This document shows positions 48,001 to 64,000 of a stretch of 64,000 nt of DNA, in pieces; within the stretch, counting starts at the first letter, position 1; each line of letters opens with the position of its first letter. The notes beneath the pieces are model-generated. The model did no database searches and was not told the origin of the DNA. It saw only the letters and a list, made by a program, of their open reading frames with translations. Source of the DNA: Candidatus Omnitrophota bacterium (GTDB lineage: Bacteria; Omnitrophota; Gorgyraeia; Gygaellales; Profunditerraquicolaceae). The position numbers and the translations under genes are program-made. The stretch covers positions 69,302 to 133,301 of the forward strand of contig JAQUOV010000003.1 of the NCBI GenBank assembly GCA_028716965.1. The letters run 5' to 3'.

Positions 48001-51000
48001 TTCCATCCTTCCGGCAATAACATCCCCGCCTGCTTTTCCTTTATAACGGCGAGCTTTTCTTTTGTAACACGGACATCCTCGCCGCGTTTCTCTTTCTCAA
48101 GGAGCTCCTTCTCCAACGCAACAAATTGCCTCAGGTTATCAGCGCGCTTCTTTTCCATATCATCGATCTTCTCCAGCAATTCAGGTATATATTCATCTTT
48201 AACTATCCAGCGCAACTGGTGCATGGAGATAAATATCACCGGCCTGCTGCCGGGAGTCTTATATGAGCCGTTGATCGCCAGCCTTAAATTGGTTTCCCCT
48301 TGTGCGCCGATAAATAACCCCTTGTGCACCTGGTCGGAGAACCTGCTGCCTTTGCCGGCCAGCGCCACTAATTGCGCGGCGCCGAAGAATTTATTGAAAT
48401 CTTCCCGGGTTACATCCTTCCACAATTTCTTTATTGATTTTGCCGTTTTTACTGCCACCGCTTCCAGGTATGCGCGCGCCCTTCTCACCGCTTCCTGCTC
48501 ATCTTTAACCCGCTGAGAATTTACCAGGTTCTCTATACCGGCATATTCCTCGACCTTCTGCCTGAAAGCGCTTCTATGGAAAACATCCTTGCCGTCATCT
48601 TTTGTATGGCTTATGCCGCAGATAACCGCGTTTATCAACCCTTTACGCACTGCCTGCTTAATACCGGATTTCCTTTCTATTAATCCCAGCTCTATCAGCG
48701 AATCATACAACTCCATATTGTAATCAAAAACCACCTCTGTAAATGTTGTGCCTTTTTCATTTGCCTGCTCCATAATTTCTTCGTTGGCCACGCGTTCATT
48801 ACCGCCGTGCTTTGCCACAATAGCCTTGTATTCATCGGAAGCTATTGCCTGCTTGAATTCTAATAGGGTCTGCCTGGCTACATACTGATTTCTGTCCTCC
48901 TTACCTTCAGCCTTAATAACTTCTCCTGTTTTCTTGAAATAGCTGTCCCCCGTACCAACCGCTATACCGGCGGGTATATACGTAAAGACATACGCCTGTT
49001 GTCTTACGGGAAAACCGGTAGCCATAGATAACCCTTCACCTTTGGCTATTAATTTGTAATACCGTTCGATATTCCATCCCTGCGTACACTCAAAATTTGC
49101 CTGGCCGGAAAATAACCCTATAACCTTATCCGCCCCTTCTCCTCCCAGAAGTTTCGCTAACTCCTCGGTTATCCTCGTTGCGTCTATACCCTGGATTGCC
49201 GGCCCTTTAAGTATATGCACCCTCCTGCCTGTGTCTTTATACGCCCTCAAGTTCTTAAAGATATCTTCGTGCCTCTCAGACTTGTTTTTCAGTATCTCTT
49301 CAACCTGCTCAGATGAAATGTCATTACCCAGCACCTTCTCTTTGCACACCACAAACACCTCAAGGTTCTGGTTAAACTCCATTAATTTCTGGATAAACGC
49401 CAGATCAAATATTGCTTCGCCGTTATTATCAAAGAAATATACCAAACGCACTTTTTTCTGGGAATTTACAACTTCTTCATAAAATCTGCTGAAATCGCGT
49501 TCAAAATCTTTATTTGATAATTCTACGGACTCTGAAAATTTACCCTGTATAAAACCAGTAGGATCATTATCAAACTCCTGGCGTATGATAGGGTTATTGA
49601 TATCTATAACCCCTCCTACAAGCGCCAATTTTAACCAGCGGTCAATCTCTTCTTTGCGGTCAAAAAGCCTGCCGCTACCTGCCTCGTATACCGCGTCTAT
49701 TGCCAAATCATTAGCCATACTATTCACTGCTTTATACGGCTCAAATTCCCCTTGCAGGCTGCCTTCCAATTTTACCTGCATAATCCTACGCACAATATCC
49801 AAAGCGTAACTATTAGTTATGAATTTGCGTAACTGCCTTCCACCCAATTTCTGCGGGCACCACGATAACACCATGCTTACTGCCAATTGCATGTCAGACA
49901 AATACTCTTTTTCTGTACATTTTCCCGGATTTTGCTCTAAGTAAGCCTGCAACTCCTTTGGTATAATGCCCATTAAATATTTATGATAGTTCTCCCAAAA
50001 CGGCTTAGATTCCATCTCACCATGCGTATACAACCCTGCCTTATAATCCCAATGCCTCGGTAGAAGGTCTATTACCTTTATATAATCCGGCACATCGGTA
50101 TCCAATATAGGCAACCCTAAAACTTCGCGAATTATATACTCCTCCATATCCTTTTGAGTAATAGATTCTGCTGTAATCTTTTTTGCTTCAGGCTGCTGAT
50201 TTCTCCATTCAGCAACAAGTTCCTTATTAACCCAGTTGAATATTCCATTTATCTGCTCAAAGCTTGGAGTCTCCTCCCCCAGCGCCGATGAGGCCCCCGA
50301 GATCTGGCTGTACAGCCAGTTTGCCGCATTGATGGTGTTCTGGATATATGTTCCCCTTTCCTGCGGGTCATATCCTTTAAAGTCGTTGTTTCTGTAATTA
50401 TCGCGCTCTCTTAAGGCCTTGATCTTTTCAAGCATCCAGGCGGATATCTTGGGATCCTCCTCCTGCTGATAAAGCTTTAGATAATCCGCCGCGTCATCTC
50501 CAATACCTAAGCGGTATAACATCGCCGGCCTAAAGAAGCTGTCTAAGTAGGCTGTATCCTGGCGCTGGTCTAATACATCCCAGAGCCCCTGTATATAAAG
50601 TGGATCTGCTTTCTGGATATCAGAGGACAAAACATAGTAAGCGCCGAGTATCCCTTTGGCTGGATCTTTGTTATCAATAGCATGGTCTAAGGGATATTCA
50701 ACCATCTGCAGGATATTGTTTCGTAAGACAATTGTCTTGGTAGAACCGGCACTTACATTGATTACCTGCTTGAGATTGCCTCTTAACATCCAGGCAAGGG
50801 AGCCTGGACCGGCAATAAGCGTACCGCAGCGGCTGTTGACCACAACGCTGTCTACAAGGCTGCCTGCATTGATTATAGAGTTGATCACCACTACCTTTCC
50901 TTTGATATGCAGGTCCCCTCTCTTGTAAGAGGCTTCTGCCTCAGGGCTGTTGATAAAGAGAGGATATTTGCTTGATTGGGGGATCTTCAGCAGCGCACAG

Positions 51001-54000
51001 AGCACCTCTTTATTGCCTGTCTCTTCGGATAACAAATCATTGTAACTCTTAAACAGCGTAGGCGCTTCGCCGATATCGATGAAGCGGGATTCTTTTCCGG
51101 CGTCAAGGTAAACTAAACCGTCAACGCTTTCGCGTTCGCAGAGGACTTCTTTTAAACGCTGGGCAAGGTCATATATATAACCATAACGTTCAGTATCGGC
51201 AGCAGTAAGCTCATTGGTATGGGATTTCTTGGTCTTAAGAAGCAGGTATTTCTGCAGGGTCGGCTGGGTCACTGCCTGCAGGATATCAATAGAGAAGTCC
51301 AGGTTGAGCATCTTTAATTGCTGTTTAAGCTCTTCCTGCCTGTCCTTAGTCTCGGTAACAGCCAACTGCTTATGCAAGGCAAGTTTCTGCTGGAAGATGG
51401 TTTCATAATAGAGATCCACTACTACCCTGGCTGCCTCCAGGCTGTATCTGTGGTTCCACCAGTTAAAATTAGTATGGCCGCGTTCAAGGATATCCTTTAA
51501 TTCCATCCAGGTCATCGGCTTTTCGATCATCCTGCTGATCAACAGCGGGCTGTCTTCATCAGGCCAGATCTGGCCTAACTGGCTGATCTTGTAAAGCACC
51601 GGAGTATGGATCTTGCCGAGCCTGCCTTTATCCTTACCTAAGTACTCTTTTAATTTATCGTTAAGTTCGGATTCGGATAGCTTAAGGATAAGACGGTTAC
51701 CTTCCCTGTATATCCAACCCATGGCAATACACTCCTCTACTGCCTGCCGGGCATCCGCATAGTTGCCGAATACCTCAATGCCTTTGCCTAAGCCTCTTAC
51801 CGGCTGGGATATCGCCCAGAACTGGTCATTGGAGATGCAGGTAATAGAGCCTTTTGGAGTATCATCCAGTAATTGCAGAGCCTGCAGGTAAACCTGCTCA
51901 TTCAATTCCAGGGTAACACCTTTGTATACTGCCGGCACGATATTGCAGCCTTTATAGCCAAAACGGCTGGCAGTAAGAGGATAACCGCGGCTGCCTGTGC
52001 CTGCGGTATGTATCATCAGGACTTGCGGGTTAACAGGAAGCCTGCCTTCTTTGATAAGGCCAAGGATATAATGCTGGACAAAGACAGCGCCGTCAAAGTT
52101 ATACATCTCTACCTCTATACCTTCCATGGTACGGGAGATAACTTCTACCTTGGTGTCTTTGAAGAGTTCGCTTATAGGATGGCTGTTAAAACGCTGTCTT
52201 AAGAAGATTGCGTCTTTTTCGGAAGCAGTGGTATAAAACACCAGGTCAAAATTCCTGCCGCTTGCCAAATGCTCCTGCGCGCGCTGGATATAGTAGAGTG
52301 AAGCTTGGGGAGTCTGGTTCTTTACCGCGCGCAGGCCGATAATGAACTCTTCATGTTCCTTAATTAAGGTGATGAGCTCTTCCGGAGTATTCTTCTCAAG
52401 GAAGTTAAGCACTTCAGTACGGTAAATCTTATGTTCAAGCCAATGCCCGATTACGGCCTCAACCAGCTCAAGCTTATTTCTTAATGGCGCCAGGTTATCA
52501 AAGTGATTTTTCATCTCTCGGCTGATAAGCTCTTGCTCAAGAAGGTTATTAGTAAACAGGCGGCGTTCAAAATTCGGCAGCGCGCGTATAAATAGTTCAT
52601 GGAAGGAATTGACATCAGTATTATTTAGAAGCGGGGCAAAGAATGATGCTGCGATATGCTGGATCCTTAGTGAATTTGAGCGGGTTTTCTTGACAAAAGA
52701 ATTTATTAACGATACGATGGCAGCGAGTTCTTCCAGGGCTGTCTCTGCCGGGTTTGGCGCCCGCGCCTGCACGTGCTTAAGCAGAAGATGTAAAAGTATA
52801 TGGCGGAACTCTTCATAGAGCAGCTGATGGTATAAAAGGCTTGGCTCCTCCAGGAGAAGGTTATCAATAATTAAGGTAAGTTTATCTTCATTGTAGTAAA
52901 CAGCAGAGAGTTTTTTATAACCGGTGCGTACCTCAAGATTCAGCCCGGCCTCAATAAGCTCAGGATACATTTTACATCCTGTTTCATATATACCTGCCAG
53001 GTTCTTGGAAGCCGCTATCCTGCCTGCGCGGCGCAGGCTTGCGATAACATCAGGGAAGCTTCCGCTTAAGAGGACCTGCGAGATCTGTCCTTCAGAGAGA
53101 CGGTTAGCAAAAGAAGAGGTAAAGAGCGTGGTAACAAAAGCACCTAATCCTTCCTCCCCCAGCGCCGATGAGGCCCCCGAGATCTGGCTGTACAGCCAGT
53201 TTGCCGCATTGATGGTGTTCTGGATATATGTTCCCCTTTCCTGCGGGTCATATCCTTTAAAGTCGTTGTTTCTGTAATTATCGCGCTCTCTTAAGGCCTT
53301 GATCTTTTCAAGCATCCAGGCGGATATCTTGGGATCCTCCTCCTGCTGATAAAGCTTTAGATAATCCGCCGCGTCATCTCCAATACCTAAGCGGTATAAC
53401 ATCGCCGGCCTAAAGAAGCTGTCTAAGTAGGCTGTATCCTGGCGCTGGTCTAATACATCCCAGAGCCCCTGTATATAAAGTGGATCTGCTTTCTGGATAT
53501 CAGAGGACAAAACATAGTAAGCGCCGAGTATCCCTTTGGCTGGATCTTTGTTATCAATAGCATGGTCTAAGGGATATTCAACCATCTGCAGGATATTGTT
53601 TCGTAAGACAATTGTCTTGGTAGAACCGGCACTTACATTGATTACCTGCTTGAGATTGCCTCTTAACATCCAGGCAAGGGAGCCTGGACCGGCAATAAGC
53701 GTACCGCAGCGGCTGTTGACCACAACGCTGTCTACAAGGCTGCCTGCATTGATTATAGAGTTGATCACCACTACCTTTCCTTTGATATGCAGGTCCCCTC
53801 TCTTGTAAGAGGCTTCTGCCTCAGGGCTGTTGATAAAGAGAGGATATTTGCTTGATTGGGGGATCTTCAGCAGCGCACAGAGCACCTCTTTATTGCCTGT
53901 CTCTTCGGATAACAAATCATTGTAACTCTTAAACAGCGTAGGCGCTTCGCCGATATCGATGAAGCGGGATTCTTTTCCGGCGTCAAGGTAAACTAAACCG

Positions 54001-57000
54001 TCAACGCTTTCGCGTTCGCAGAGGACTTCTTTTAAACGCTGGGCAAGGTCATATATATAACCATAACGTTCAGTATCGGCAGCAGTAAGCTCATTGGTAT
54101 GGGATTTCTTGGTCTTAAGAAGCAGGTATTTCTGCAGGGTCGGCTGGGTCACTGCCTGCAGGATATCAATAGAGAAGTCCAGGTTGAGCATCTTTAATTG
54201 CTGTTTAAGCTCTTCCTGCCTGTCCTTAGTCTCGGTAACAGCCAACTGCTTATGCAAGGCAAGTTTCTGCTGGAAGATGGTTTCATAATAGAGATCCACT
54301 ACTACCCTGGCTGCCTCCAGGCTGTATCTGTGGTTCCACCAGTTAAAATTAGTATGGCCGCGTTCAAGGATATCCTTTAATTCCATCCAGGTCATCGGCT
54401 TTTCGATCATCCTGCTGATCAACAGCGGGCTGTCTTCATCAGGCCAGATCTGGCCTAACTGGCTGATCTTGTAAAGCACCGGAGTATGGATCTTGCCGAG
54501 CCTGCCTTTATCCTTACCTAAGTACTCTTTTAATTTATCGTTAAGTTCGGATTCGGATAGCTTAAGGATAAGACGGTTACCTTCCCTGTATATCCAACCC
54601 ATGGCAATACACTCCTCTACTGCCTGCCGGGCATCCGCATAGTTGCCGAATACCTCAATGCCTTTGCCTAAGCCTCTTACCGGCTGGGATATCGCCCAGA
54701 ACTGGTCATTGGAGATGCAGGTAATAGAGCCTTTTGGAGTATCATCCAGTAATTGCAGAGCCTGCAGGTAAACCTGCTCATTCAATTCCAGGGTAACACC
54801 TTTGTATACTGCCGGCACGATATTGCAGCCTTTATAGCCAAAACGGCTGGCAGTAAGAGGATAACCGCGGCTGCCTGTGCCTGCGGTATGTATCATCAGG
54901 ACTTGCGGGTTAACAGGAAGCCTGCCTTCTTTGATAAGGCCAAGGATATAATGCTGGACAAAGACAGCGCCGTCAAAGTTATACATCTCTACCTCTATAC
55001 CTTCCATGGTACGGGAGATAACTTCTACCTTGGTGTCTTTGAAGAGTTCGCTTATAGGATGGCTGTTAAAACGCTGTCTTAAGAAGATTGCGTCTTTTTC
55101 GGAAGCAGTGGTATAAAACACCAGGTCAAAATTCCTGCCGCTTGCCAAATGCTCCTGCGCGCGCTGGATATAGTAGAGTGAAGCTTGGGGAGTCTGGTTA
55201 TAAACATCCCTTAAAGAAGAGACCAGCCAGGAGTAGCGCTCTAGATCAGCGAATATATCCTCTAAAACAGTAACCCTAAGATAATCTAAAATCTCTTCGC
55301 GGTAGAGGTTATGCTGAAGGTAGTGTTGGATGAGTTCAGGGATTATTGCTTTAGTTGAGTAAAGCGGGGGTAGAGAGTCTATCTCCTGTTTGATACCTTC
55401 GGAAATAATCTTGTGATTTAGTAATAGATACAGCCTTTCTTTTTTGTTTGGAGACAGGGAGCGTAATAATATTTTATAGAAACCATTTTTATCGGTAGAG
55501 TTGATTAGGGGCAAGATAATGTTCTTTTGTTTCTTTGGGGGGAGCTTACCGAACATTTCCAGAAGCCGCATATCCGTGAGCAATTCTTCTAAAGCAATCT
55601 CTTCAAAGTTAGGCGCGCGGGCGCGGACATTGCTCATAAGTATCTGTATTAGCAAATGATGGAATTCTTCATGCATAAGCAGAAGTTGAAGCAGGCGGGA
55701 GTGCTCTAAAAGAAAATCTTCTATTAAAAGAGTAAGCCTGCCGGTGCGGTAATATACAGCAGAGAGTTTATTGTAGCCAGAGGTAATCTCTATCTGGAAG
55801 CCGGATTCGTCTAATTCGGGGTACTCTTTCTTGGCGCGGTTAAATACTTCAGAAAGGTTGCGTGCCTGATTTAACCTGCCTGCTGAACGCAGCGCGGTTA
55901 AAACTTCCTCTTTACTGCCGCGGTAAAGCACATTGAGCACCTGGCCTTCAGCGAGGCGCGTGGCGATTGAAGAGGTTAATAAGGATTCGGACGCGAGAAC
56001 TGGAGAGGCCGCTCCGTTTTCAATGCTGCTCCGATACAATTCCAGATATTTGGCAGCCGATATTTCCCAGCCGAAATTGCCATTTATGGCATTATTAATT
56101 AAAGCCAGCCTGTCTTCATCCTTCTGCCAAGCCATTATCGCCCGTTTAATAGCCGCTACCATTGCATCGGTGTTACACGGTTCAAAGAGAAAACCGTTTC
56201 CCTGCTTTGTCTTGGGATTAAATTCTACTACGGTATCTGCCAGGCCGCCTGTTTCGGAAACAACCGGGATTGTTCCGTTAACAAGGGAATAGATCTGGGT
56301 TAATCCGCAAGGTTCATACCTGGAAGGCATCAAGAATATATCCACTCCTGCCACAAGCAGCTTACCCAACGTTTTTATAACAGGATCATGCTGCTTGATT
56401 TTCATTCTAGTGCCTATACCATAATGCAGGCTGACCCTGCGCCTTAGCTGTTCAGGGAGAAGCCGAGTACGGTCTGTAAATTCCCTAAACAAGCTGTCAT
56501 CATCAGAACCAATCAATACAAACTGCACCCCCAGTTGCATAATTTCCTCAAATTTGTTCAGGATAAAATCAGCTCCTTTTTGCCTTGCAAAGCGGGTAAA
56601 CACTCCGATGATTGGCATATCAGAAAGCTCTAAATTCAATTCCCTTTGCAGCATAGCTTTATACCTGCCTTTGCCTGCTAAAACATTAGGCAGGTTATAT
56701 TCCTCTTCATTTCCTAATGATTTCCATTCATCATAATCTACGCCATTAAGTATTCCATGAAGATGCGCTTTCCTCTCTGATAGAACGCCTTCTAAGCCGG
56801 CGCCGAATTCTTCTCCGGGCTTTAAGATTTCCTTGGCGTACCTGTCGCTTACCGTCGTAATCTCATCCGCATAAATAATCCCGCCTTTCATAAGGTTAAT
56901 CTGGCCGTAAAATTCCAAGCCGTCAATGTTAAGCATCTCTTCCCTGTTTAACCCGGTAAGCTCAAAAAGATGATCATCAAACTTTCCCTGATAGTCAGGG

Positions 57001-60000
57001 CCTAAATTATGAATAGTGTATATTACCCTGCTATTTTCTAAAGATGGCTCATTCTTATAGTCGCTATGCTTTTTAAGTAACGGGGCAATCAAAGCAGCCT
57101 GCCAGTCATGAGGATGGATAATATTCGGGTTTAACTGGAATTCCTTAACCAGCTCTAAAGCGCCCTTAGAAAGAAACACTGCCTGTTCAAACATTAATTC
57201 TTTCAATAAGCCGGCGCGCTCATGCATATAGATCTCCCTACCCAATCTTTGGGTAAGATAATCCTGCGCAAGCTCAAAGTCAGAGTTTTGCGCTCCTAAA
57301 TAGAGTTTCTTGGAATATAGTGGGTGCTGCAGGAAGAATACAGTTACACCGTTAGATTTTGCAATCCATACCGGAGCGAATTCTTTTTTGTTGCCTATTT
57401 TTATTATTAAATCCCTGCCGGTATATTCAATGCCAAGCTTATTTCTTTTATCCTCATTAATGTCATCATAAAGCAGGGTACAGACAGATACTATCTCGCC
57501 GAGCTCGGATTGCGCTTTGGGTAAGATGCCTAAAACATCAGCTAAGCCGCCTGCTTTCGCGTAGGGGACAATCTCCGGGCTGACATGGAGTATCTTTAAC
57601 ATCTCAAGCGCGCTTGAAGCCAAGAGAGGCGGCGCGCGGGGCTGGGATTGTTTCAAGAGTAAAGGCGAAGAATTCGAGCCATTTAAATTATCCATAGGAC
57701 ACCTATATCCAGGCCGTGGCGTCCAACCGTATGGACAAACCCAGCCTTGGTCGCCACAATATACTGTAAAATCAGGACAATCTTTAATTTCAGATGTCGT
57801 AGCTGGCTCAGAAGGGATTTGTCGCTCAACAAGAAGCTGTTCCTCTGCTGAACTGATATCTTCAGCAACTTTTGCTGCAACTATATTAATTGCAAGGTTA
57901 GCTCTTTCTGGCGTCAATGTAAGTTTGCCGTAAGATACCAAGAAAATATTGTTATATTTCATATGAATATTATTAATCTGATCCTGAATTTTCTTTTTCT
58001 TTTCAAGACCATTGATTTTCTCTGAAGGATAAACTTCATTGCCCCAATCATCCACTTCTTGTATAAAACCAGTAATAATGTTGCGATATATGCTGTGAGT
58101 TCTAACCGCGTCTGCCTGAAAATAGCCGTGATAATCCCTTCCGACGAATTCCCATAATTCCATTATGCCATTTACATCCATATGTTTAATTACTTGATTT
58201 AAAGAATATGTTAATTTCTCGAGTCTGGTTAAATCAGCTAATAAATATCTGGCTATTCGCGATGCGTCTATTCCTTCTTTAATAATCTTTTCGGTTACAA
58301 TACATAGCCTTTTGAATAATTCCTGCTTATCATATTTTGAGACATCGCTATAATAATATTCTACTTTATTTATACAGTTGTTTGCTATCGATTCTTCAAT
58401 ATTTAGGTTTTTGATTAAATGTGTTTCAAATATACACATTCTTAACTTATGTAAAAATGATGGTTTTACTGATATTATATCGCCTTGCGACTGCCAACAA
58501 AGCCAACTTAATGAAAATACTATCTTGTTGATAATAAGAAACAGACCTCTCGCCAATCCTAAACCTGCGATGAAAATTAAACTGATCATCCAAGGCGATA
58601 ATGAGGTTATATAAGAGACTGCTGTGCAGCTGGGGACCAACAGCATTAAGCTGCTAATAGATAATACTGATAATATTTTAGCTAAGCGGGAGTTATCTTT
58701 TGGTTGTATCGGAGAGCTTACACCTTGTTTCCGGCTCTTAGATAATTCTTTTTCTATCTCCACTAATACCTGTTTGAGGCGAGCGATCTCTTTCGTGGTC
58801 TGGGATACCATGCGCTTGTCATTATGGTTGATATCCAGCGAGGCTATGGCTTGGGTTAAATCCATAACTATAGCAGTACCTTGCTCACGCACTTCTTCGG
58901 GTAGGGTGTTGACAAAACTAAGGGAATCCTTTATCTCCACTAATACCTGTTTGAGGCGAGCGATCTCTTTCGTGGTCTGGGATACCATGCGCTTGTCATT
59001 ATGGTTGATATCCAGCGAGGCTATGGCTTGGGTTAAATCCATAACTATAGCAGTACCTTGCTCACGCACTTCTTCGGGTAGGGTGTTGACAAAACTAAGG
59101 GAATCCTTTATCTCCACTAATACCTGTTTGAGGCGAGCGATCTCTTTCGTGGTCTGGGATACCATGCGCTTGTCATTATGGTTGATATCCAGCGAGGCTA
59201 TGGCTTGGTTCATGGTCGCGCTAATACGAGCCGCATGTTGCAATTTCAACTCTACATCCAGGCTATCCATAAAAGATTCGCTTTTTTGGACCAATGATAT
59301 TACTCTTTCCAGCGAAGTAATATACGCTAATGTTGCCGCCAGCCCACTTATTGATTTACTGCTGCTTAAGATGGTTTTTAATTTAGCTCTTTGCTCGTCT
59401 AAGCTCTTCAGGGTCTGCTGACATAAACTGTACACACTACCAGGTAAAGAGGTCATGTAACCGACTATTGCATTTAATTTCTTCATTACATTAATGATCA
59501 AATTCAACTCCTGCCTGGCCCACTCACGTTCAGTATTTTCATATAACGAACTTATTTTCTTTTTCGTATGCTCTATCTCCTCAGTAATTGCGGCCAATTC
59601 ACCGGCCTTCCGGGAACGGATGTCTTCAGCTATGCCCTCCGCGGCAATTTCTCCTTTTAGTTCGGCAATCTTATCATTATCTCTTAACAACTCTTCTCTC
59701 AATGGGGCAACCTTACTATGAAGGGTGTTGACGGCTTTCGCCAACTCATCAGCCGGAGTACCTTCGGGCGTAAGCCCAAATTCTTCAACCATAGCGGCCG
59801 CATATTCTGTTTTCCCAGGGAAAACCAACTTTCTCATCTCAGTTAAAGCCCCCTCAATATAATTGTACGCTTCCTGATGGAAGAATATCCTAGTCTGCTG
59901 TAAGCGGGCTTCGACTGTGCTGCGGGTTTCAAAATCAAGATTATCCCGGACAGCTTCAAAATCAGCGACTATACCAAGATAAGACTCCTGCAGTTTATTC

Positions 60001-63000
60001 AGTTTATAGCACCCGATTATCTTGGATAAGACAATGTGGGTAAGGAGGATACCACCTATCCAACCCACATACACGAATAACTCGCCGAAAGTAACCTTTA
60101 ACATAGCCTTGCCTAAAGCCAGGTAGAAATAATCCGGAAGAGGGACAAGGCCGAATAAGAAGAATGCGGTTGTGCCGATAACGTAAAAGCGGCTCAATTC
60201 CCACAATGCTCTATGCCATTTTGGCCAAGTGGATTTATTCTTTAGTATCTTATCAATGCCTAGTAATAAGGTTTTAACAATTAAATCACGCATATGACCT
60301 AATAGTACGGGCTTGCCTGCTTTAGGCATATAGGCCGAAAGAACATATAAAAGCATGAATGCGCTTAATATTAATGGCACAGCAAATATCCCCATATAGG
60401 CTAATCCAATGATGAAAGACCCAGAAGATTTTAAAGCGCCGTGCAGGAAATAAATCGTAATTATACCTAAGCCCAAGCCCAAAGTATCTATTGCTCTATC
60501 CCCCCACTCTCTGAAGCAGCCCTTGAAAAACGGCCATCTTTGGATACCTTTACCTAAGCTTACTCCCGGCTTATTCTCGCTTACAAAAGGACCGATTACC
60601 ATAGAGATACCGAAGAATGTGGAGATAAACAGGAATATGGCATTGGTTAAATCCAGCCCGACCATGAAGGCTATGACATTGAAAGTGGTCAAGACAATGC
60701 CGACTCCTATCTCTAATCTATAAAGTTTCCTGTTCTTTGATAAATTCATCTTAGAGAGAATATTATACTCCCCAAAGTTTCCGGCTCCGGAAGTAGCAAA
60801 GATGTATCCTACTCCTTTATAGCTCATTACCTGTGCTAAAGCTTCAAACATTACGCGATGGGCAAAAAGTATGATGTCTCTGGGTCGCTGGGATAACCAG
60901 CGTCCGACTCCCAGGAACGAAGCGCTGGAGAAAAATCCGTAAACGCCGATAATCGCGGAGATAACAATCCCACCGAATAAGTAATAATATAAATAAGCCA
61001 ATAATAAGCCTCCGATAATTCCACGGGCGAATTGCTTCGGTGAGGCAAATAACGAAGGCACGCCGGAAACTGCGCGTAAGTGCGCGCCGAATCCGTTAAA
61101 AGTGCTTATCTGATTGAATGCCGTACCGATAATTACAAAGGCTGCTCCTATCCCGACAAAAGGTAGCGTATCCAAAATAATGCCTAACGGTATAAGGAAC
61201 AAACCAAGCATAGCCACCGGCATAGTTACGTAGAACCTGGCAGTGTCTCTTCTGCCATCGCGCTCAAAAATAGCTTCCGGCCCAAAATCATTTATGGCCT
61301 GAATGATATAGCTACCCAGCGTCTGCGTTAACCCCCAGGACCAGCGCGGTACGGCATTCTCCAATTCTGCAGTGCTGTAACTTTCTCTCATCTTAAAGGC
61401 TAAAGCAAAGGAAAGCGCAAAATTCGGCCTTACCCCTAAAGCAATCAGGTTATGCGTCTGATACATAACATCCACAAAATCTTCGCTCTGATGCGGGGCG
61501 CTCGGGCCTAAACCTATTAAACCGTAACGATACCAATCGTTATATTGAGAATAAGGATACATCTCTTGCATTTCACTAGTAATGGGCATGACCGGCTGAT
61601 CAGAATTTCTTAAGGCCGCTAGATATCCATCCTCACCTTGATCAAGCAATTTCATGATGTTCATCCAACCCGTGCCTATTTTATCGTTCCATCCCAACAT
61701 TGAATATCCGTGTCCACCTTCTACTAACCAGGACATATTACCGAGAGGCATACGTATGTTAGTAGTATTCCTTAAAGCCGGCATGATTACAATCTCCGGA
61801 TTACTGATCATTCTCTTTAAATCATAAGCAAATGTATTTACATCAAGAGAGTTAGAGTTCCTATCCATAACTACGAGATACTTTAAGCGACTCATAATAT
61901 CATGCGGAAGCATAAATACCCCAAGCATCGCCCCTGATTTCAAAGTGGAAGGATTGGCGTTATGAGTATTGTAGAATCTCCCCCCTCCGGAGATATATTC
62001 AAAGAGTGTGCCGAGTACTTCATAATTCGCGATATCATCTTCTTGCCACCACTTTCCGAACTGATTATGTGTAGGCACCAAGACAAGATTCTTACCTAAA
62101 CCTTCTTCTCTGAGTTTGGCCGCAATATCCATAATATTTATCGGGGCATCAAAGGGCCAAAGGGCAGTGTTAGTCATTATGAGATGCCTTCTAACCGCGT
62201 GACCTATTCTGATTCTTGTTAACTCATCTTCGCTTACAGCTCTAATTCTGCAGATATCGGTGACATTAGGATCCTCAACCTGAACTAAGCTGAAAAGCGG
62301 AATGCCGTTAGCCACACTTTCCCATGTATGTTTCATAAGCTTCTTTTCCGCATCATCTAAATTTGACGACTTAATAAATGCCTTCATCTTATCCTGATAG
62401 TCTCTGTCTCTATAATATTTAAATACAAGCGTATCTTCATCGGGATTCTCAAAGAATTGCTGCCACTTGTTACTTCCTCCAAACATTTCCAGTATAATTC
62501 TTCTTGGAATTCGCGGCTCTTTCTCTTTGTTTCCAAGAACATTGAGTGCTTGCTCGATTTCTCTCATCACCTCTTCATCGCTTAAATTCATATTCTGAAG
62601 CATGACCCTTACTTCATCAAAAATGACATTGACCTCGGGAGAGTAATTATCTATCAGGTGTTGCAAACACGACATCATGGCTGCTGGATTCCTTACACTG
62701 TTCGAATGGAGCGGATGCCCCACATAGTTAATAAATATTAGATTGTTGCTTTCGATAAACTCGCTTATCTTAGTCTCGTCTACCTTGGTGGGACCGTGCT
62801 CTTCTTTATAAATAATGGTGGAGAGCCAAGTAACAAACGGCCATATACCATATTCCAAAAGATATACGAATAATGCCAGCCCTGAATAAATGCCTAAGGT
62901 AGCCCGGGCATACAATCCCGCATCAAAATGACTATAAATCCAAGGTAATGAGAACCAGCTAATTACTAATCCCAAACTCATAAATAAGGAGTATTTAGCT

Positions 63001-64000
63001 AAGCGTAATAACACTGTCCTCGGCCTGCCTACACCAATAGAAGGCCTAAAATTCCGGTAGCATGATAAACCCACCAAAGAGCGTCCGAAAACCAGGTTTA
63101 TTAACCCTTCCAAATATAAGGTAGTCACCAAGAAAACCTTTAAAACAAAGGTGCTTACTGAAACCACCGGCATAATACTGTGGAGTATGCCGGTTAAAGC
63201 AAGAATCAGCATACCATTAATGCTGAATAAATTACGTTGCGCACCAAATCTTAAGCGGGCCATTCTTCCGTACTGATAAAATGTGTTGAATAAAACAAGT
63301 AATGATACTACTGCCAACGCTTGCGGCACCAAGGCAGCGGCAAATATCGCCGAAAGCTTCCCGCTTATAGCCCAAGCATAAAGCGCAGCCGTATTAAAGC
63401 CCAAAATAAGCGCGTAAGGCAGGTAATAAGCCATCTCAATCAGATAGGGAGGTATGGACTTTGCCCCCCAGCCCAATCTTCTTTGCCATCTTTCTTTCCA
63501 GAAGCTCTTGAGTTCTTTTTTGATTATCTTGAACTCTTCAGGTAAAACATAAGGTGTAGCCGGATCAGTATTCTTTATGCTTATGCCGAGTTTTTGCAAA
63601 TCCTGCTGTAGGCTTTTAAAATCTTCCTTCTCCTCTCCCTCGGCCTTAACAGAGATTACCTCCTCAAGAGTTCTTTGGTTACCGACTTCTTTTTTGGCTT
63701 CAAATATTGTCTCGCTTCTCTTTCTAATTCTCTCGATCAATGCTGCCAAATCCTGACTAATCTCCCGATCAAACAATGTAATTCCTTCGGCTTTAAGAAA
63801 ACTCCGGAAATGCTCTAGGTCAAAATCGCCATCCACAAGCCTTATCTCTTTAAGAATACTGTCGAAACTATTCCTATCGCCAGTAACCAAGGCTTTCCTT
63901 AATTTATGCTCTATATTAAGGAAATACAGCTCCAGCTTATCCAGGATTTCTTCATCCGGATGCCCGATCTGATTATATGGGCTGTCTAAATTCAGAACGT
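1..64000 (-). CDS. Single giant multidomain ORF, partial at both ends (about 21,330 codons in window); protein larger than 21 kaa
   Basis: Minus-strand frame with codons at + positions 3k..3k+2 has no stop (no tta/cta/tca triplet in that register) in a line-by-line scan of 22611-64000 and in a hand translation of 1-22610. The frame register is the same at both ends (partial codons at 1-2 and 63999-64000). Recognisable protein motifs occur in this frame all along the window. No + strand ORF exceeds 267 aa. Confidence 0.85.
300..1450 (-). other. PPDK_N-like PEP/pyruvate-binding ATP-grasp domain (pyruvate phosphate dikinase / PEP synthase N-terminal family)
   Basis: MALLGGKANNLRSRAHLGITVPAWVCFTTDTW at about 1380-1440, GGSFISLPGQLDTILNVPMSD, SSAWGTACLLQEMVFGN...GTAVVFSRDF, and GKTTVYLLQSRAAP. 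Confidence 0.55.
8760..9700 (-). other. Histidine-kinase core: HisKA H-box plus HATPase_c (copy c)
   Basis: H-box MSHIIKNPLNAMG at about 9600-9630. N-box region LKIISYMLKNAQQAG, G1 box IRIRDEGGAGI at about 8985-9010, and G2 box GGNVSVESLPGEYTEFTVALP. Confidence 0.55.
12780..13150 (-). other. Response-regulator receiver (REC, CheY-like) domain
   Basis: VTILVVDDEPDLRKGIKNLL...LLVTSDISMPEMDGIALLDVLK...IPVVMIST...GAAGYFNK, with the acidic pocket, phospho-Asp and conserved Lys in canonical spacing. Confidence 0.6.
15750..16620 (-). other. YvcK/CofD-like (UPF0052) domain 1
   Basis: ILESGGGASIAMAGVIARM...LAVISGTDNGGSTLITRG at about 16450-16580. Confidence 0.4.
17000..21000 (-). other. Alpha-helical (HEAT/ARM-like) repeat region
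   Basis: Long Leu/Ala/Glu-rich helical periodicity in translation; weak call. Confidence 0.25.
21400..22610 (-). other. P-loop NTPase / kinase-like domain
   Basis: Walker A LDLLTGLGGSGKTTALGY at 22562-22610. Confidence 0.45.
26500..27000 (-). other. HExxH zinc-metallopeptidase-like motif (M48/M56-like)
   Basis: GLVMLFAHELKHILSGH, with the HELKH codons at about 26750-26764. Confidence 0.35.
29181..29201 (-). other. Walker A P-loop motif (GRSASGK) of a small kinase-like domain
   Basis: Translation ILLRIVGRSASGKVPLARHFGLF. Confidence 0.3.
29250..29650 (-). other. GHKL/HATPase_c-like ATPase domain (copy b)
   Basis: VKLVDNGRGMTADALQ at about 29450-29490 and GTGIDGQGIGIYTM. Confidence 0.45.
30600..31440 (-). 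other. HIT-like GDP-hexose phosphorylase / GalT-Apa2-like domain
   Basis: FGASVNHLHFQILY (H-x-H-x-Q) at about 30830-30880. Confidence 0.35.
31440..33020 (-). other. glgA: Glycogen/starch synthase-like domain 1 (GlgA, GT5 family)
   Basis: An in-frame Met at 33018-33020 starts MTILHISPEADPFSKEGGLADA. Further motifs: IHAHDWQAAMVAPL, FYSIHNLSYQG, RLVPDKGLDL, MPSRKEPCGLTQ, RTGGLADTI, and a C-terminal NFSWEVSASKYLELYRSS. Confidence 0.8.
33030..34130 (-). other. Cupin-like domain (class II phosphomannose-isomerase-like)
   Basis: GDIGRPHIHTPIDNQPLEVIIIQRGKARF at about 34030-34100, then HPALGHTHQFTA (a His-rich motif) closer to the GlgA domain. Confidence 0.35.
34600..34900 (-). other. GHKL/HATPase_c-like ATPase domain (copy a)
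   Basis: LAIDNGDGIPGIF (D-x-G-x-G) at about 34850-34875 and GNGMGF at about 34780-34800. Confidence 0.45.
35330..36880 (-). repeat. Tandem duplication of a roughly 258-aa domain (two diverged copies, period about 774 bp), unknown function
   Basis: Both copies share IMGGPFD / IIGGPFD, LYNVHATL, YGREDDEFY, KPSxxxNxxDFI and RRKxIKLNIP motifs. The + strand shadow ORFs 34948..35442 and 36022..36225 share ...GIFNF..FL.ASR ends. Confidence 0.6.
38900..40400 (-). other. GT-B glycosyltransferase domain (trehalose-6-P synthase / sucrose-P synthase-like)
   Basis: Translation WWVIEGEPLHFEVTKFF...IFLVHDPQPAFMFYLLKF...WQGHIQFHISQD...TIILQNGRFDELKDPEGVMIAYRMLAL...LLLTAPLPSDD resembles the OtsA/GT20 and GT4 pattern. 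Confidence 0.35.
40450..41400 (-). other. Metallo-beta-lactamase-fold domain
   Basis: HMHEDH motif (H-x-H-x-D-H) at 41364-41387 inside ISHLAITHMHEDHVAGALAYFE, with downstream His/Asp positions. Confidence 0.5.
44100..45800 (-). other. YvcK/CofD-like (UPF0052, 2-phospho-L-lactate transferase / gluconeogenesis-factor family) domain 2
   Basis: N-terminal IMGGSGGVPTILMENLLGDV and SIAIICSPHDDGGSSRKL...YIPSPGDPMN (about 45670-45800), and C-terminal IVLGPGSLVTSVLPVLMIPEIVEAIKR (about 44100-44180). Confidence 0.4.
50272..52319. repeat. 2,048-bp exact direct repeat, copy 2
   Basis: As above. Mismatches flank both ends (50271 vs 53151; 52320 vs 55200). Confidence 0.95.
50900..52100 (-). other. Nucleotidyltransferase-like (UDPGP / fucose-pyrophosphorylase-like) domain inside each repeat copy
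   Basis: Gly-rich NTP-binding-like stretch LMIHTAGTGSRGYPLTASRFGYKGCNIVP, followed by a beta-strand-rich stretch KGKVVVINSIINAGSLVDSVVVNSRCGTLIAGPGSLAWM. Assignment is tentative. Confidence 0.3.
53152..55199. repeat. 2,048-bp exact direct repeat, copy 1; in-frame coding of about 682 aa that includes a sugar-nucleotidyltransferase-like domain
   Basis: Nucleotide-identical to 50272-52319, offset 2,880 bp (a multiple of 3). The duplicated + strand track ORFs 53536..53808, 54094..54288, 54198..54380 and 54753..55082 equal 50656..50928 and so on. Confidence 0.95.
55200..56030 (-). other. Module A variable helical region (diverged paralog of 52320-53150)
   Basis: Translation starting SGAASPVLASESLLTSSIATRLAEGQVLNVLYRGS aligns at roughly 40% identity with the region upstream of repeat copy 2 (GEEGLGAFVTTLFTSSFANRLSEGQISQVLLSGS). 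Confidence 0.5.
56030..57602 (-). other. glgA: Glycogen/starch synthase-like domain 2 (GlgA, GT5 family)
   Basis: An in-frame Met at 57600-57602 starts MLKILHVSPEIVPYAKAGGLADV. Further motifs follow in the same frame: HPHDWQAALIAPLL, IYTIHNLGPDYQG, RFARQKGADF, MPSRYEPCGLTQIY, ETGGLADTV, and a C-terminal W-x-x-SA-x-x-YLELYRS. Confidence 0.75.
57696..57790 (-). other. Cys-rich knot CPDFTVYCGDQGWVCPYGWTPRPGYRCP (possible Zn or disulfide motif)
   Basis: Five Cys residues within 28 residues in the ORF frame; no family recognised. Confidence 0.25.
58520..58700 (-). other. Hydrophobic transmembrane-like segment(s)
   Basis: Translation ILSVLSISSLMLLVPSCTAVSYITSLSPWMISLIFIAGLGLARGLFLIINKIV. Confidence 0.4.
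58755..59208. repeat. Perfect 177-bp tandem repeat, about 2.6 copies (58758-58934, 58935-59111, 59112-about 59208); encodes 59-aa repeats in the minus-strand ORF
   Basis: Identical DNA units seen directly. The minus-strand translation per unit is about KDSLSFVNTLPEEVREQGTAIVMDLTQAIASLDINHNDKRMVSQTTKEIARLKQVLVEI. The + strand ORF 58624..59421 is its antisense shadow. Confidence 0.9.
59215..60000 (-). other. Coiled-coil-like charged helical segment
   Basis: Heptad-like Glu/Lys/Leu-rich translation (ELLRDNDKIAELKGEIAAEGIAEDIRSRKAGELAAITEEIEHTKKKISSLYENTEREWARQEL). Confidence 0.3.
60000..63550 (-). other. Polytopic membrane region (multiple hydrophobic helices) flanking a roughly 430-aa soluble loop at about 61500-62800; possible membrane-embedded synthase/anchor module
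   Basis: Translation gives long hydrophobic runs such as LILALTGILHSIMPVVSVSTFVLKVFLVTTLYL, MPVAMLGLFLIPLGIILDTLPFVGIGAAFVIIGTAF and IGVGIVLTTFNVIAFMVGLDLTNAIFLFISTFFGISMVIGPF. The loop contains GHAVRRHLIMTNTALWPFD...LVLVPTHNQFGKWW. Confidence 0.5.

What the first reader, a model, noticed from the sequence alone, without database searches (positions are those of the whole stretch)
60000..63550. Membrane-embedded module with a large loop near the N-terminal side of the window; the megaprotein is probably membrane-anchored
At least 8-10 strongly hydrophobic helices flank a roughly 430-aa soluble loop (GHAVRRHLIMTNTALWPFD…LVLVPTHNQFGKWW…). The layout is reminiscent of processive membrane glycan synthases or exporters. 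Together with the downstream GlgA-like and GT-B domains it could form a membrane-coupled polysaccharide synthesis and export machine. I recognised no classical Q-x-x-R-W motif.
Basis: partly seen in the sequence, partly recalled or inferred. Interest (0 to 1): 0.55.

Follow-up and report, generated by a model that had tools for sequence, protein, structure and literature searches.

The report
Hidden cellulose-synthase-like module in giant protein
Near the start of a gene longer than 64 kb, probably from an Omnitrophota-type bacterium, sits a 1,200-residue membrane module that no sequence database recognises but that is predicted to fold like cellulose, chitin and hyaluronan synthases, suggesting the giant protein makes a sugar polymer and pushes it across the membrane.

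Summary
The whole window is one stop-free minus-strand frame of 21,332 codons. Residues 184-1329 (window 60012-63449) form 6 + 10 predicted membrane helices around a 525-residue cytosolic region.

Pfam, NCBIfam and PDB sequence and profile searches find nothing. An exhaustive search of 1.84 billion proteins finds only 131 relatives, nearly all in very long proteins or fragments of them. Four relatives lie in PVC-group MAGs, three labelled Omnitrophota and one Planctomycetales.

Two AlphaFold models (pLDDT 72, pTM 0.66 and 0.71) match, by Foldseek, only membrane-integrated GT-A glycan synthases at the top: CesA, BcsA, hyaluronan, chitin, CslF6 and cyclic-glucan synthases.

Fifty-nine diverse relatives keep an invariant catalytic-type set: K687, D712-R-N, E760, G-W778, S-E839-D840, K869-x-R-E, [A/S]-x-P-R885-W886-x-x-G, and a possible gating loop F1067-x-x-S-G. 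Charge distribution puts the GT domain and both ends of the module in the cytoplasm.

Best reading: a new, sequence-orphan family of processive glycan synthase-translocases. It has GT2-like R-W and a DxN motif like fungal Fks1 (GT48). Profile comparison with fungal GT48 is negative. The product is unknown. GH16 or GH5 genes next to some relatives hint at a beta-glucan.

The parts
3..63998 (-). One uninterrupted reading frame of 21,332 codons, open at both window ends. It is part of a giant gene.
   Evidence: Six-frame scan. P(no stop) is about 1e-610. Pfam domains occur along its length.
63450..63551 (-). K/R-rich cytosolic helices just before TM1 (residues 150-183).
   Evidence: 9 K+R in 34 residues. 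Helices 4-26 of the model. The flank is conserved in relatives.
62811..63449 (-). N-terminal bundle of six transmembrane helices, TM1-TM6 (residues 184-396).
   Evidence: Hydropathy, AlphaFold helices, loop charges. Collinear with P0001 and others.
63024..63086 (-). Conserved arginine-rich cytosolic loop between TM4 and TM5 (residues 305-325, GRSLVGLSCYRNFRPSIGVGR).
   Evidence: In alignment A4, S307 is invariant and P319, R325 and R327 are nearly invariant. 4 K+R.
62202..62810 (-). Variable, mostly helical cytosolic sub-domain preceding the GT core (residues 397-599). It carries an insertion of about 70 residues relative to P0001.
   Evidence: BLASTP against P0001. Model secondary structure and low-pLDDT stretches.
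61236..62201 (-). GT-A-type glycosyltransferase core with interface helices (residues 600-921).
   Evidence: AlphaFold models. Foldseek hits to CesA, BcsA, HAS and CHS. Invariant residues.
61938..61940 (-). K687, invariant lysine. Proposed nucleotide-sugar phosphate contact, by its position relative to Fks1 K1082.
   Evidence: 59/59. Fks1 residue roles from PMC10499315.
61857..61865 (-). D712-R713-N714, a 'DxN' motif at the end of a beta strand, in the place of the GT-A DxD.
   Evidence: D 59/59, R 58/59, N 50/59, with D at the third position in only 2/59. The strand ends at model residue 562.
61479..61487 (-). S838-E839-D840 at the N-terminus of a helix (a finger-helix 'ED' motif). Proposed catalytic base.
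   Evidence: 58/59, 59/59 and 59/59. Helix 690-704 of the model.
61383..61394 (-). K869-M-R871-E872, an invariant K-x-R-E motif.
   Evidence: K, R and E each 59/59. Same pattern and spacing as Fks1 K1246-G-R1248-D.
61332..61355 (-). A882-V-P-R885-W886-S-W-G889, a degenerate QxxRW-type motif on an interface helix.
   Evidence: R, W and G 59/59. Position 882 is A (48) or S (11), never Q. Helix 727-746 of the model.
60012..61235 (-). C-terminal bundle of ten transmembrane helices, TM7-TM16 (residues 922-1329). It includes an amphipathic helix (1028-1059) and conserved P946-F947 and N962-Q963.
60786..60800 (-). F1067-A-T-S1070-G1071, a conserved loop after the amphipathic helix. Candidate gating loop.
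   Evidence: F 57/59, S 57/59, G 50/59. Low-pLDDT loop 916-929 of the model. The gating role is inferred from position only.
58515..58691 (-). A further hydrophobic hairpin (residues 1770-1828) between the module and the GlgA-like unit.
   Evidence: Hydropathy. Translation.
56088..57596 (-). GlgA-like GT5 + GT1 (GT-B) unit (residues 2135-2637) in the same frame.
   Evidence: Pfam Glyco_transf_5 at 4e-56 and Glycos_transf_1 at 3e-13.

Best explanation
Residues about 150-1340 of the giant protein form an autonomous membrane-integrated GT-A glycosyltransferase of the cellulose-synthase fold class. Six N-terminal and ten C-terminal transmembrane helices surround a cytosolic catalytic domain.

Inferred mechanism: a nucleotide sugar binds at K687 and D712-R-N714. 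The E839/D840 pair on a finger helix deprotonates the acceptor hydroxyl. R885/W886 on an interface helix hold the end of the growing chain. The polymer is pushed, one sugar at a time, through a channel formed by the flanking helices to the outside of the cytoplasmic membrane.

Both ends of the module are cytosolic. The rest of the megaprotein (GlgA-like GT5/GT1, TreT-like GT, PPDK-N-like, kinase and receiver domains) would therefore sit on the cytoplasmic face, tethered by this module.

The family is a sequence orphan. It combines a GT2-like R-W-x-x-G with a DxN and a K-x-R-[D/E] pattern otherwise described for fungal Fks1 (GT48). The product is not known. A beta-linked glucan is the best guess.
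For: SHOWN
- One 21,332-codon frame.
- Hydrophobic clusters on either side of a 525-residue region.
- K+R in alternate short loops is 34 versus 3, which places the N-terminus, the GT region and the C-terminus inside.
- No Pfam, NCBIfam or PDB sequence or profile match.
- 131 relatives in 1.84e9 proteins, 74 of them at E<=1e-30.
- A 59-sequence alignment has invariant K687, D712, D726, R743, E760, G777-W778, E839-D840, K869, R871-E872, R885-W886 and G889.
- The window copy keeps all of these residues.
- AlphaFold core model: pLDDT 72.4, pTM 0.66. Full-module model: pLDDT 72.1, pTM 0.71.
- Foldseek against PDB, core model: the top hits are chitin and hyaluronan synthases (E 1e-4 to 1e-2), and BcsA also appears.
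- Foldseek against PDB, full module: ranks 1-23 are all membrane glycan synthases (CesA 8vi0 at 4.7e-5, BcsA 5ej1/4p00/4hg6, HAS 7sp8, CHS 7wjo, CslF6 8dqk, Cgs 8rf9). The best CesA and BcsA alignments span roughly 740-920 columns, and most hits have probability 0.94-1.0.

INFERRED
- Residue roles come from their order, their spacing and the secondary-structure elements they sit on. They are compared with roles published for BcsA and Fks1 (PMC10499315).
- Processivity and export are inferred from the fold class.
- A beta-glucan product is suggested by the genes next to relatives: GH16 immediately downstream of two, GH5 next to one, and a BACON/GH2-like gene next to one.
Against: - Model confidence is moderate, and the alignments behind the models are shallow (14-19 sequences).
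- TM-scores to the hits are low (0.14-0.33 on the query, 0.2-0.4 on the target), and global rmsd is 15-29 A. The match is at the level of fold class, not a close superposition.
- I could not obtain residue-level structural alignments, so the equivalence of motifs rests on order and spacing.
- There is no DxD and no Q of QxxRW.
- Three of seven informative neighbourhoods have no hydrolase gene.
- No expression or biochemical data exist.
Confidence: 0.68

Rival explanations
1. A non-processive membrane GT-A that transfers a single sugar to a lipid carrier or another membrane acceptor, in the manner of DPMS, GtrB or ArnC. In this reading the helices bind the lipid rather than form a polymer channel.
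For: Such enzymes also appear in the fold lists: PcManGT 6yv7, DPMS 5mm1 and GtrB 9nyf. Fold class alone cannot prove processivity.
Against: These enzymes rank below the polymer synthases, at E 0.04 to 1. With the full module they drop out of the top 23. They have 2-4 helices, not 16. They lack an invariant R-W-x-x-G interface-helix motif and an F-x-x-S-G loop.
Confidence: 0.15
2. A true bacterial member or sister of the GT48 beta-1,3-glucan synthases (Fks1, callose synthase), making and exporting beta-1,3-glucan without a metal ion.
For: - DRN takes the place of DxD, as Fks1 has DAN.
- K, [S/N]-E-D, K-x-R-[D/E] and a basic residue on IF2 occur in the same order with similar spacing: 25, 127, 30 and 16 residues here against 20, 119, 25 and 15 in Fks1.
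- The 6 + 10 helices here compare with the two clusters totalling 15-17 helices in Fks1.
- GH16 genes lie directly downstream of two relatives.
Against: Pfam PF02364 does not match. hhalign of the family profile against Fks1 alone, and against an 87-sequence fungal GT48 profile, gives probability 0.2. Fks1 is not among the top 50 Foldseek hits of either model. The R-W-x-x-G motif is GT2-like, not GT48-like.
Confidence: 0.12
3. A catalytically dead anchor: a relic synthase fold that now only tethers the giant protein to the membrane.
For: The rest of the protein needs an anchor. There is no DxD and no Q of QxxRW.
Against: About 20 polar or charged residues at catalytic-type positions are invariant across 59 sequences that share only about 30-40% identity overall. 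The same module ends otherwise unrelated 4,200-4,600-residue proteins.
Confidence: 0.04
4. A transporter of the RND/MMPL or ABC kind with a large soluble loop.
Against: No such fold appears among the hits, except one ABC chain at probability 0.04. The loop has a GT-A strand and helix order. No Pfam transporter family matches.
Confidence: 0.01

Closest known systems
Cellulose synthases BcsA / CesA (CAZy GT2; PDB 4hg6, 4p00, 5ej1, 6wlb, 8vi0)
   Same: They are the best fold matches of the full module. They share a cytosolic GT-A domain between helix bundles, an E-D on a finger helix, R-W-x-x-G on an interface helix, and a conserved loop in the gating-loop position.
   Different: - No sequence or profile similarity.
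- DRN instead of DxD.
- A or S instead of Q in QxxRW.
- 16 helices against 7-8.
- No PilZ domain.
- Embedded in a polypeptide of more than 21,000 residues.
[quoted passage not shown]
   Same: Both have the cellulose-synthase-like fold class. Both have a DxN motif at the DxD position (DAN in Fks1, which is reported to be metal-independent). K, [N/S]-E-D and K-x-R-[D/E] occur in the same order and spacing. Both have two helix clusters with six helices before the GT domain.
   Different: hhalign probability is 0.2. PF02364 does not match. Fks1 is not in the top 50 fold hits. Fks1 has no R-W motif. Fks1 is eukaryotic and regulated by Rho1.
Chitin and hyaluronan synthases (GT2; PDB 7wjo, 8k52, 7stl, 8smn, 7sp8)
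   Same: They are the top fold matches of the core model. They are membrane-integrated GT-A enzymes with their own translocation channel.
   Different: They have canonical DxD and Q-x-x-R-W motifs, about six helices, and no sequence similarity to the module.
Cyclic beta-1,2-glucan synthase Cgs (GT84; PDB 8rf9, 8rf0)
   Same: It is a fold hit at rank 19. It is a precedent for a membrane GT-A synthase fused in one very long polypeptide (about 2,800 residues) to other carbohydrate-active domains.
   Different: A different family, about 6 helices, a defined GH94 partner domain, and a tenth of the size.
Giant 'Archaeovorin' / multi-enzyme proteins of Omnitrophota (bioRxiv 10.1101/2023.11.21.568195; 10.64898/2026.06.07.730766)
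   Same: - A frame of more than 21,000 residues.
- GT5, GT1, PPDK, HATPase_c and receiver domains.
- Many membrane helices.
- Three of the four genome-derived relatives lie in Omnitrophota MAGs.
   Different: Those papers left the helix-rich regions out of structure prediction and report N-terminal regions without identifiable domains. Neither mentions a cellulose-synthase-like, GT2 or GT-A module. No SecA_DEAD, HEAT or dockerin hit was found in this window.

Membership tests
CAZy GT2 processive synthases (BcsA/CesA/CHS/HAS) | Sequence match to a GT2 family model (Glycos_transf_2, Glyco_tranf_2_3, Cellulose_synt, Chitin_synth) | tested here: not met
   The window protein has no Pfam or NCBIfam hit at E<=1. 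None of 19 family members matches at E<=10. The family profile against PDB sequences gives 0 hits at E<=10.
CAZy GT2 processive synthases (BcsA/CesA/CHS/HAS) | GT-A domain packed on a helix bundle (the cellulose-synthase fold) | tested here: met
   Foldseek ranks 1-23 (full module) and 1-17 (core) are such enzymes, most at probability 0.94-1.0. TM-scores are low (0.2-0.4).
CAZy GT2 processive synthases (BcsA/CesA/CHS/HAS) | D, DxD, (T)ED and Q-x-x-R-W signature | tested here: inconclusive
   E-D and R-W-x-x-G are invariant. DxD is replaced by D-R-N, and Q by A or S. The structural equivalence of these positions was not checked residue by residue.
CAZy GT48 (Fks1 / callose synthase) | Sequence or profile match to Glucan_synthase PF02364 or GT48 proteins | tested here: not met
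   No Pfam hit. hhalign against Fks1 residues 821-1514, and against an 87-sequence fungal GT48 profile, gives probability 0.2. The GT48 profile was fungal only.
CAZy GT48 (Fks1 / callose synthase) | DAN-type (DxN) motif replacing DxD, plus K, N-E-D and K-x-R active-site residues | tested here: met
   D712-R-N714, K687, S-E-D 838-840 and K869-x-R871 occur in the same order and with similar spacing. This is a pattern match only, without statistical support.
CAZy GT48 (Fks1 / callose synthase) | Production of beta-1,3-glucan from UDP-glucose | not testable with these tools
   The only evidence is indirect: GH16 genes downstream of two relatives.
Omnitrophota giant (Archaeovorin-type / multi-enzyme) proteins | Predicted protein of more than 10,000 residues with many membrane helices | tested here: met
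   21,332 codons without a stop. Hydrophobic clusters at residues 184-1329, 1770-1828 and 15063-15128.
Omnitrophota giant (Archaeovorin-type / multi-enzyme) proteins | GT5, GT1 and PPDK-type domains; Omnitrophota origin | tested here: met
   Pfam hits. Relatives at 47-69% identity lie in three Omnitrophota MAGs and one MAG labelled Planctomycetales. The window's own organism was not found.
Omnitrophota giant (Archaeovorin-type / multi-enzyme) proteins | SecA_DEAD, HEAT, TPR or C39 domains reported as typical | tested here: not met
   None was listed at E<=1e-3 in the 21,332 residues of the window. The gene extends beyond the window on both sides.
RND / MMPL exporters | Twelve-helix RND fold with periplasmic loops | tested here: not met
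   No such hit in Pfam or in the fold searches. Charge counts place the loop in the cytoplasm.

The most novel reading that the evidence does not exclude
The module represents a bacterial lineage specifically related to the eukaryotic GT48 beta-1,3-glucan synthases. It shares the metal-independent DxN chemistry, the K-x-R-[D/E] motif, six helices before and about ten after the GT domain, and has GH16 partners. It still keeps the GT2-type R-W motif. On this reading it is a missing link between GT2 and GT48, carried by PVC-group and Omnitrophota giant proteins.
Probability: 0.12. Interest if true: 0.85.

Novelty: new variant of a known kind. Interest (0 to 1): 0.62.

Why it matters
What the giant proteins of Omnitrophota do is an open question. 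Published proposals centre on attachment to prey and degradation of prey cell walls. The helix-rich and N-terminal parts have been left as dark matter.

A conserved synthase-translocase module that looks catalytically intact points instead, or in addition, to the synthesis and export of a polymer. It also gives a 1,200-residue unit that can be expressed and assayed on its own.

For glycobiology it would be a new family of membrane-integrated processive glycosyltransferases that current family models do not detect. Its DxN motif has so far been discussed as a peculiarity of fungal Fks1.

The same module closes 4,200-4,600-residue proteins that have no Pfam domain at all. It therefore offers a first functional handle on those proteins too.

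Tried and rejected
Sequence and profile searches
- Pfam and NCBIfam on residues 1-1499 gave nothing.
- phmmer and a 19-sequence profile against PDB sequences gave nothing.
- Pfam scans of 19 family members at E<=10 gave only noise.
- The word-indexed protein search found one relative with the single sequence and one with the profile. The exhaustive search was needed.

GT48 hypothesis
- I checked that the Fks1 sequence I recalled is identical to PDB 7xe4_F.
- hhalign against it, and against a fungal GT48 profile, was then negative.

Genome scans
- Window-specific peptides found nothing.
- A five-sequence alignment found four MAG loci.

Other checks
- The RND/MMPL/ABC idea is rejected by the fold lists.
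- A second copy of the module in the window was looked for and is absent.
- The idea that a GlgA-like unit always follows the module is rejected.
- The idea that a hydrolase gene always follows the module-bearing gene holds in only 4 of 7 informative contexts.
Full report
WHAT IS THERE

The window contains no ordinary genes. Its minus strand is one stop-free frame from 63998 to 3, 21,332 codons long and open at both ends. From base composition, the chance of that is about 10^-610.

Pfam finds real domains all along the frame. There are two GlgA-like GT5+GT1 units, plus ARMT1-like, CofD-like, metallo-beta-lactamase, TreT-like GT, two HATPase_c, a receiver and a PPDK-N domain.

This is the domain repertoire described for the giant 'Archaeovorin' or multi-enzyme proteins of Omnitrophota. 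Relatives of the region studied here lie in three MAGs labelled Candidatus Omnitrophota and one labelled Planctomycetales. The window's own organism was not found.

THE OBSERVATION

Because the gene runs on the minus strand, 60000-63550 corresponds to residues about 150-1333, near the N-terminal end of the window.

Twenty of the 36 strongly hydrophobic 19-residue segments of the whole frame fall in this 5% of its length. The AlphaFold model resolves them into six helices (residues 184-396) and ten helices (922-1329), on either side of a 525-residue soluble region.

Short loops on one side carry 34 K+R and those on the other side carry 3. By the positive-inside rule, the segment before TM1, the soluble region and the segment after TM16 are all cytoplasmic. 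The helix count and loop length were underestimated.

A SEQUENCE ORPHAN WITH A SMALL, COHERENT FAMILY

Pfam and NCBIfam give no hit at E<=1. PDB sequences give none.

An exhaustive HMMER search of 1.84 billion representative proteins finds 131 relatives, 74 of them at E<=1e-30. Nearly all are very long proteins or fragments of them, up to 7,464 residues. Only one copy of the module exists in the window.

In a 59-sequence alignment sharing about 30-40% identity, the following are kept in 57-59 sequences:
- N645, K687, D712, R713 and D726
- R743, T745 and E760
- G777-W778
- S838-E839-D840
- K869, R871 and E872
- R885, W886 and G889
- P946-F947 and N962-Q963
- F1067 and S1070

The window copy has all of them. 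Neither the family profile nor its members match PDB or Pfam.

FOLD

Two AlphaFold2 runs were made without templates. The GT core plus four helices (19-sequence alignment) reached pLDDT 72.4 and pTM 0.66. The full 1,191-residue module (14 sequences) reached pLDDT 72.1 and pTM 0.71.

Foldseek against PDB with the core model puts chitin synthases and hyaluronan synthases first (E 1e-4 to 1e-2). BcsA follows, and then soluble GT-A enzymes.

With the full module, ranks 1-23 are exclusively membrane-integrated glycan synthases:
- plant CesA (8vi0 at 4.7e-5, 8vht, 6wlb)
- BcsA (5ej1, 4p00, 4hg6)
- hyaluronan synthase (7sp8)
- chitin synthases
- CslF6
- cyclic beta-1,2-glucan synthase

The best CesA and BcsA alignments span roughly 740-920 columns, and most hits have probability 0.94-1.0. 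TM-scores are low (0.2-0.4) and global rmsd is large. This is a fold-class assignment, not a close match. No transporter fold appears.

ANATOMY AGAINST KNOWN ACTIVE SITES

This part is inferred. It rests on the order and spacing of the motifs and on the secondary-structure elements of the model.
- D712 ends a beta strand, as a DxD does. The motif here is D-R-N.
- S-E-D (838-840) starts a helix, like the finger-helix TED or NED.
- K-x-R-E (869-872) follows a strand.
- [A/S]-x-P-R-W-[S/A]-x-G lies on the next helix, like QxxRW on interface helix 2.
- After four helices and an amphipathic helix comes a conserved, poorly ordered F-x-x-S-G loop. That is where cellulose synthases have the gating loop.

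The published Fks1 active site is K1082, D1102-A-N1104 (the 'DAN' motif, metal-independent), E1155, N1220-E-D1222, K1246, R1248 and K1261 on IF2. It has the same order and very similar spacing. I verified the Fks1 sequence I used against PDB 7xe4.

Even so, hhalign against Fks1 and against an 87-sequence fungal GT48 profile is negative, and Fks1 is not among the top 50 fold hits. The module therefore shares features with both GT2 (R-W-x-x-G) and GT48 (DxN, K-x-R-[D/E], six helices before the GT domain). It cannot be filed in either family.

CONTEXT IN RELATIVES

- In P0001 the gene starts 455 residues before the point that aligns with the window's first residue.
- In the Omnitrophota locus L003 the frame opens about 1,750 residues before the GT core.
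- In P0002, the closest relative, at least 2,750 residues precede the module and a GT5 domain follows it within about 210 residues.
- In locus L005 the module is followed by DUF218 and radical-SAM domains instead.
- A large sub-family consists of complete genes of 4,200-4,600 residues with no Pfam domain at all, and the module forms their C-terminal end.
- One of these genes sits in a neighbourhood with a PVC-type ECF sigma factor.

The module is therefore a self-contained unit that recurs in different long proteins.

Seven neighbourhoods have readable downstream genes. Two have a GH16 gene 6-35 nt downstream. One has a convergent GH5 gene. One has a BACON/GH2-like gene. Three have none. This recalls the hydrolase genes of cellulose-synthase operons and hints at a beta-glucan product, but no more than that.

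CONCLUSION

The most likely reading (about 0.68) is a new, sequence-orphan family of processive glycan synthase-translocases with a cytosolic active site. It anchors the megaprotein to the inner face of the membrane.

The rivals are:
- a non-processive lipid-directed or acceptor-directed GT-A (0.15)
- a genuine bacterial GT48 relative (0.12, and the most novel reading)
- a dead anchor (0.04)
- a transporter (0.01)

The two papers on Omnitrophota giant genes held in the library do not mention such a module. The first states that helix-rich regions were excluded from structure prediction and that N-terminal regions lack identifiable domains.

Noticed in passing
window 50256-52343 and 53136-55223 (minus strand; residues 2926-3621 and 3886-4581): A 2,088-nt segment occurs twice inside the giant frame, exactly 2,880 nt apart. 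The copies are 98.6% identical at DNA level, with 30 mismatches. It is either a recent internal duplication or a collapsed or expanded repeat in the assembly. GC skew also changes from about -0.3 to about 0 at 50-56 kb.
   Followed up: partly
window about 58750-59205 (minus strand; residues about 1598-1750): A perfect tandem repeat of a 59-residue unit (QAIASLDINHNDKRMVSQTTKEIARLKQVLVEIKDSLSFVNTLPEEVREQGTAIVMDLT), about 2.6 copies, just before the hydrophobic hairpin at residues 1770-1828.
   Followed up: partly
window 56088-57596 and about 31500-33010 (minus strand): Two GlgA-like GT5+GT1 units lie about 8,190 residues apart in the same frame and share scattered identical 8-mers. The frame also holds TreT-like GT, CofD-like, ARMT1-like, metallo-beta-lactamase, two HATPase_c, a receiver and a PPDK-N domain.
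   Followed up: no
window 18615-18812 (minus strand; residues 15063-15128): Another cluster of two or three hydrophobic helices lies deep inside the frame, far from the module. If these helices insert, later parts of the protein could change sides of the membrane.
   Followed up: no
L007 4945-5754; L010 19791-20645; L011 13357-15225; L006 15389-17776: Glycoside-hydrolase genes lie directly next to genes that end with the module: GH16 twice, GH5 once, and BACON/GH2-like once. Three other neighbourhoods have none.
   Followed up: partly
P0022, P0012 (and P0014, P0045, P0029, P0033, P0051): These are complete genes of 4,200-4,600 residues whose only recognisable part is the C-terminal module. P0022 and P0012 have no Pfam family at all at E<=1e-4.
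   Followed up: partly
P0084, P0086, P0112 (relatives): In three relatives the two halves of the GT core match in swapped order. The K-x-R-E/R-W/helix half comes 250-600 residues before the K/DRN/SED half. This could be a permuted or split module, or two partial modules.
   Followed up: no
window 54753-55082, 55933-56292, 58624-59421 (plus strand): The only ORFs listed by the ORF tool in this part of the window are short plus-strand frames lying antisense inside the giant gene. They are most likely spurious.
   Followed up: no
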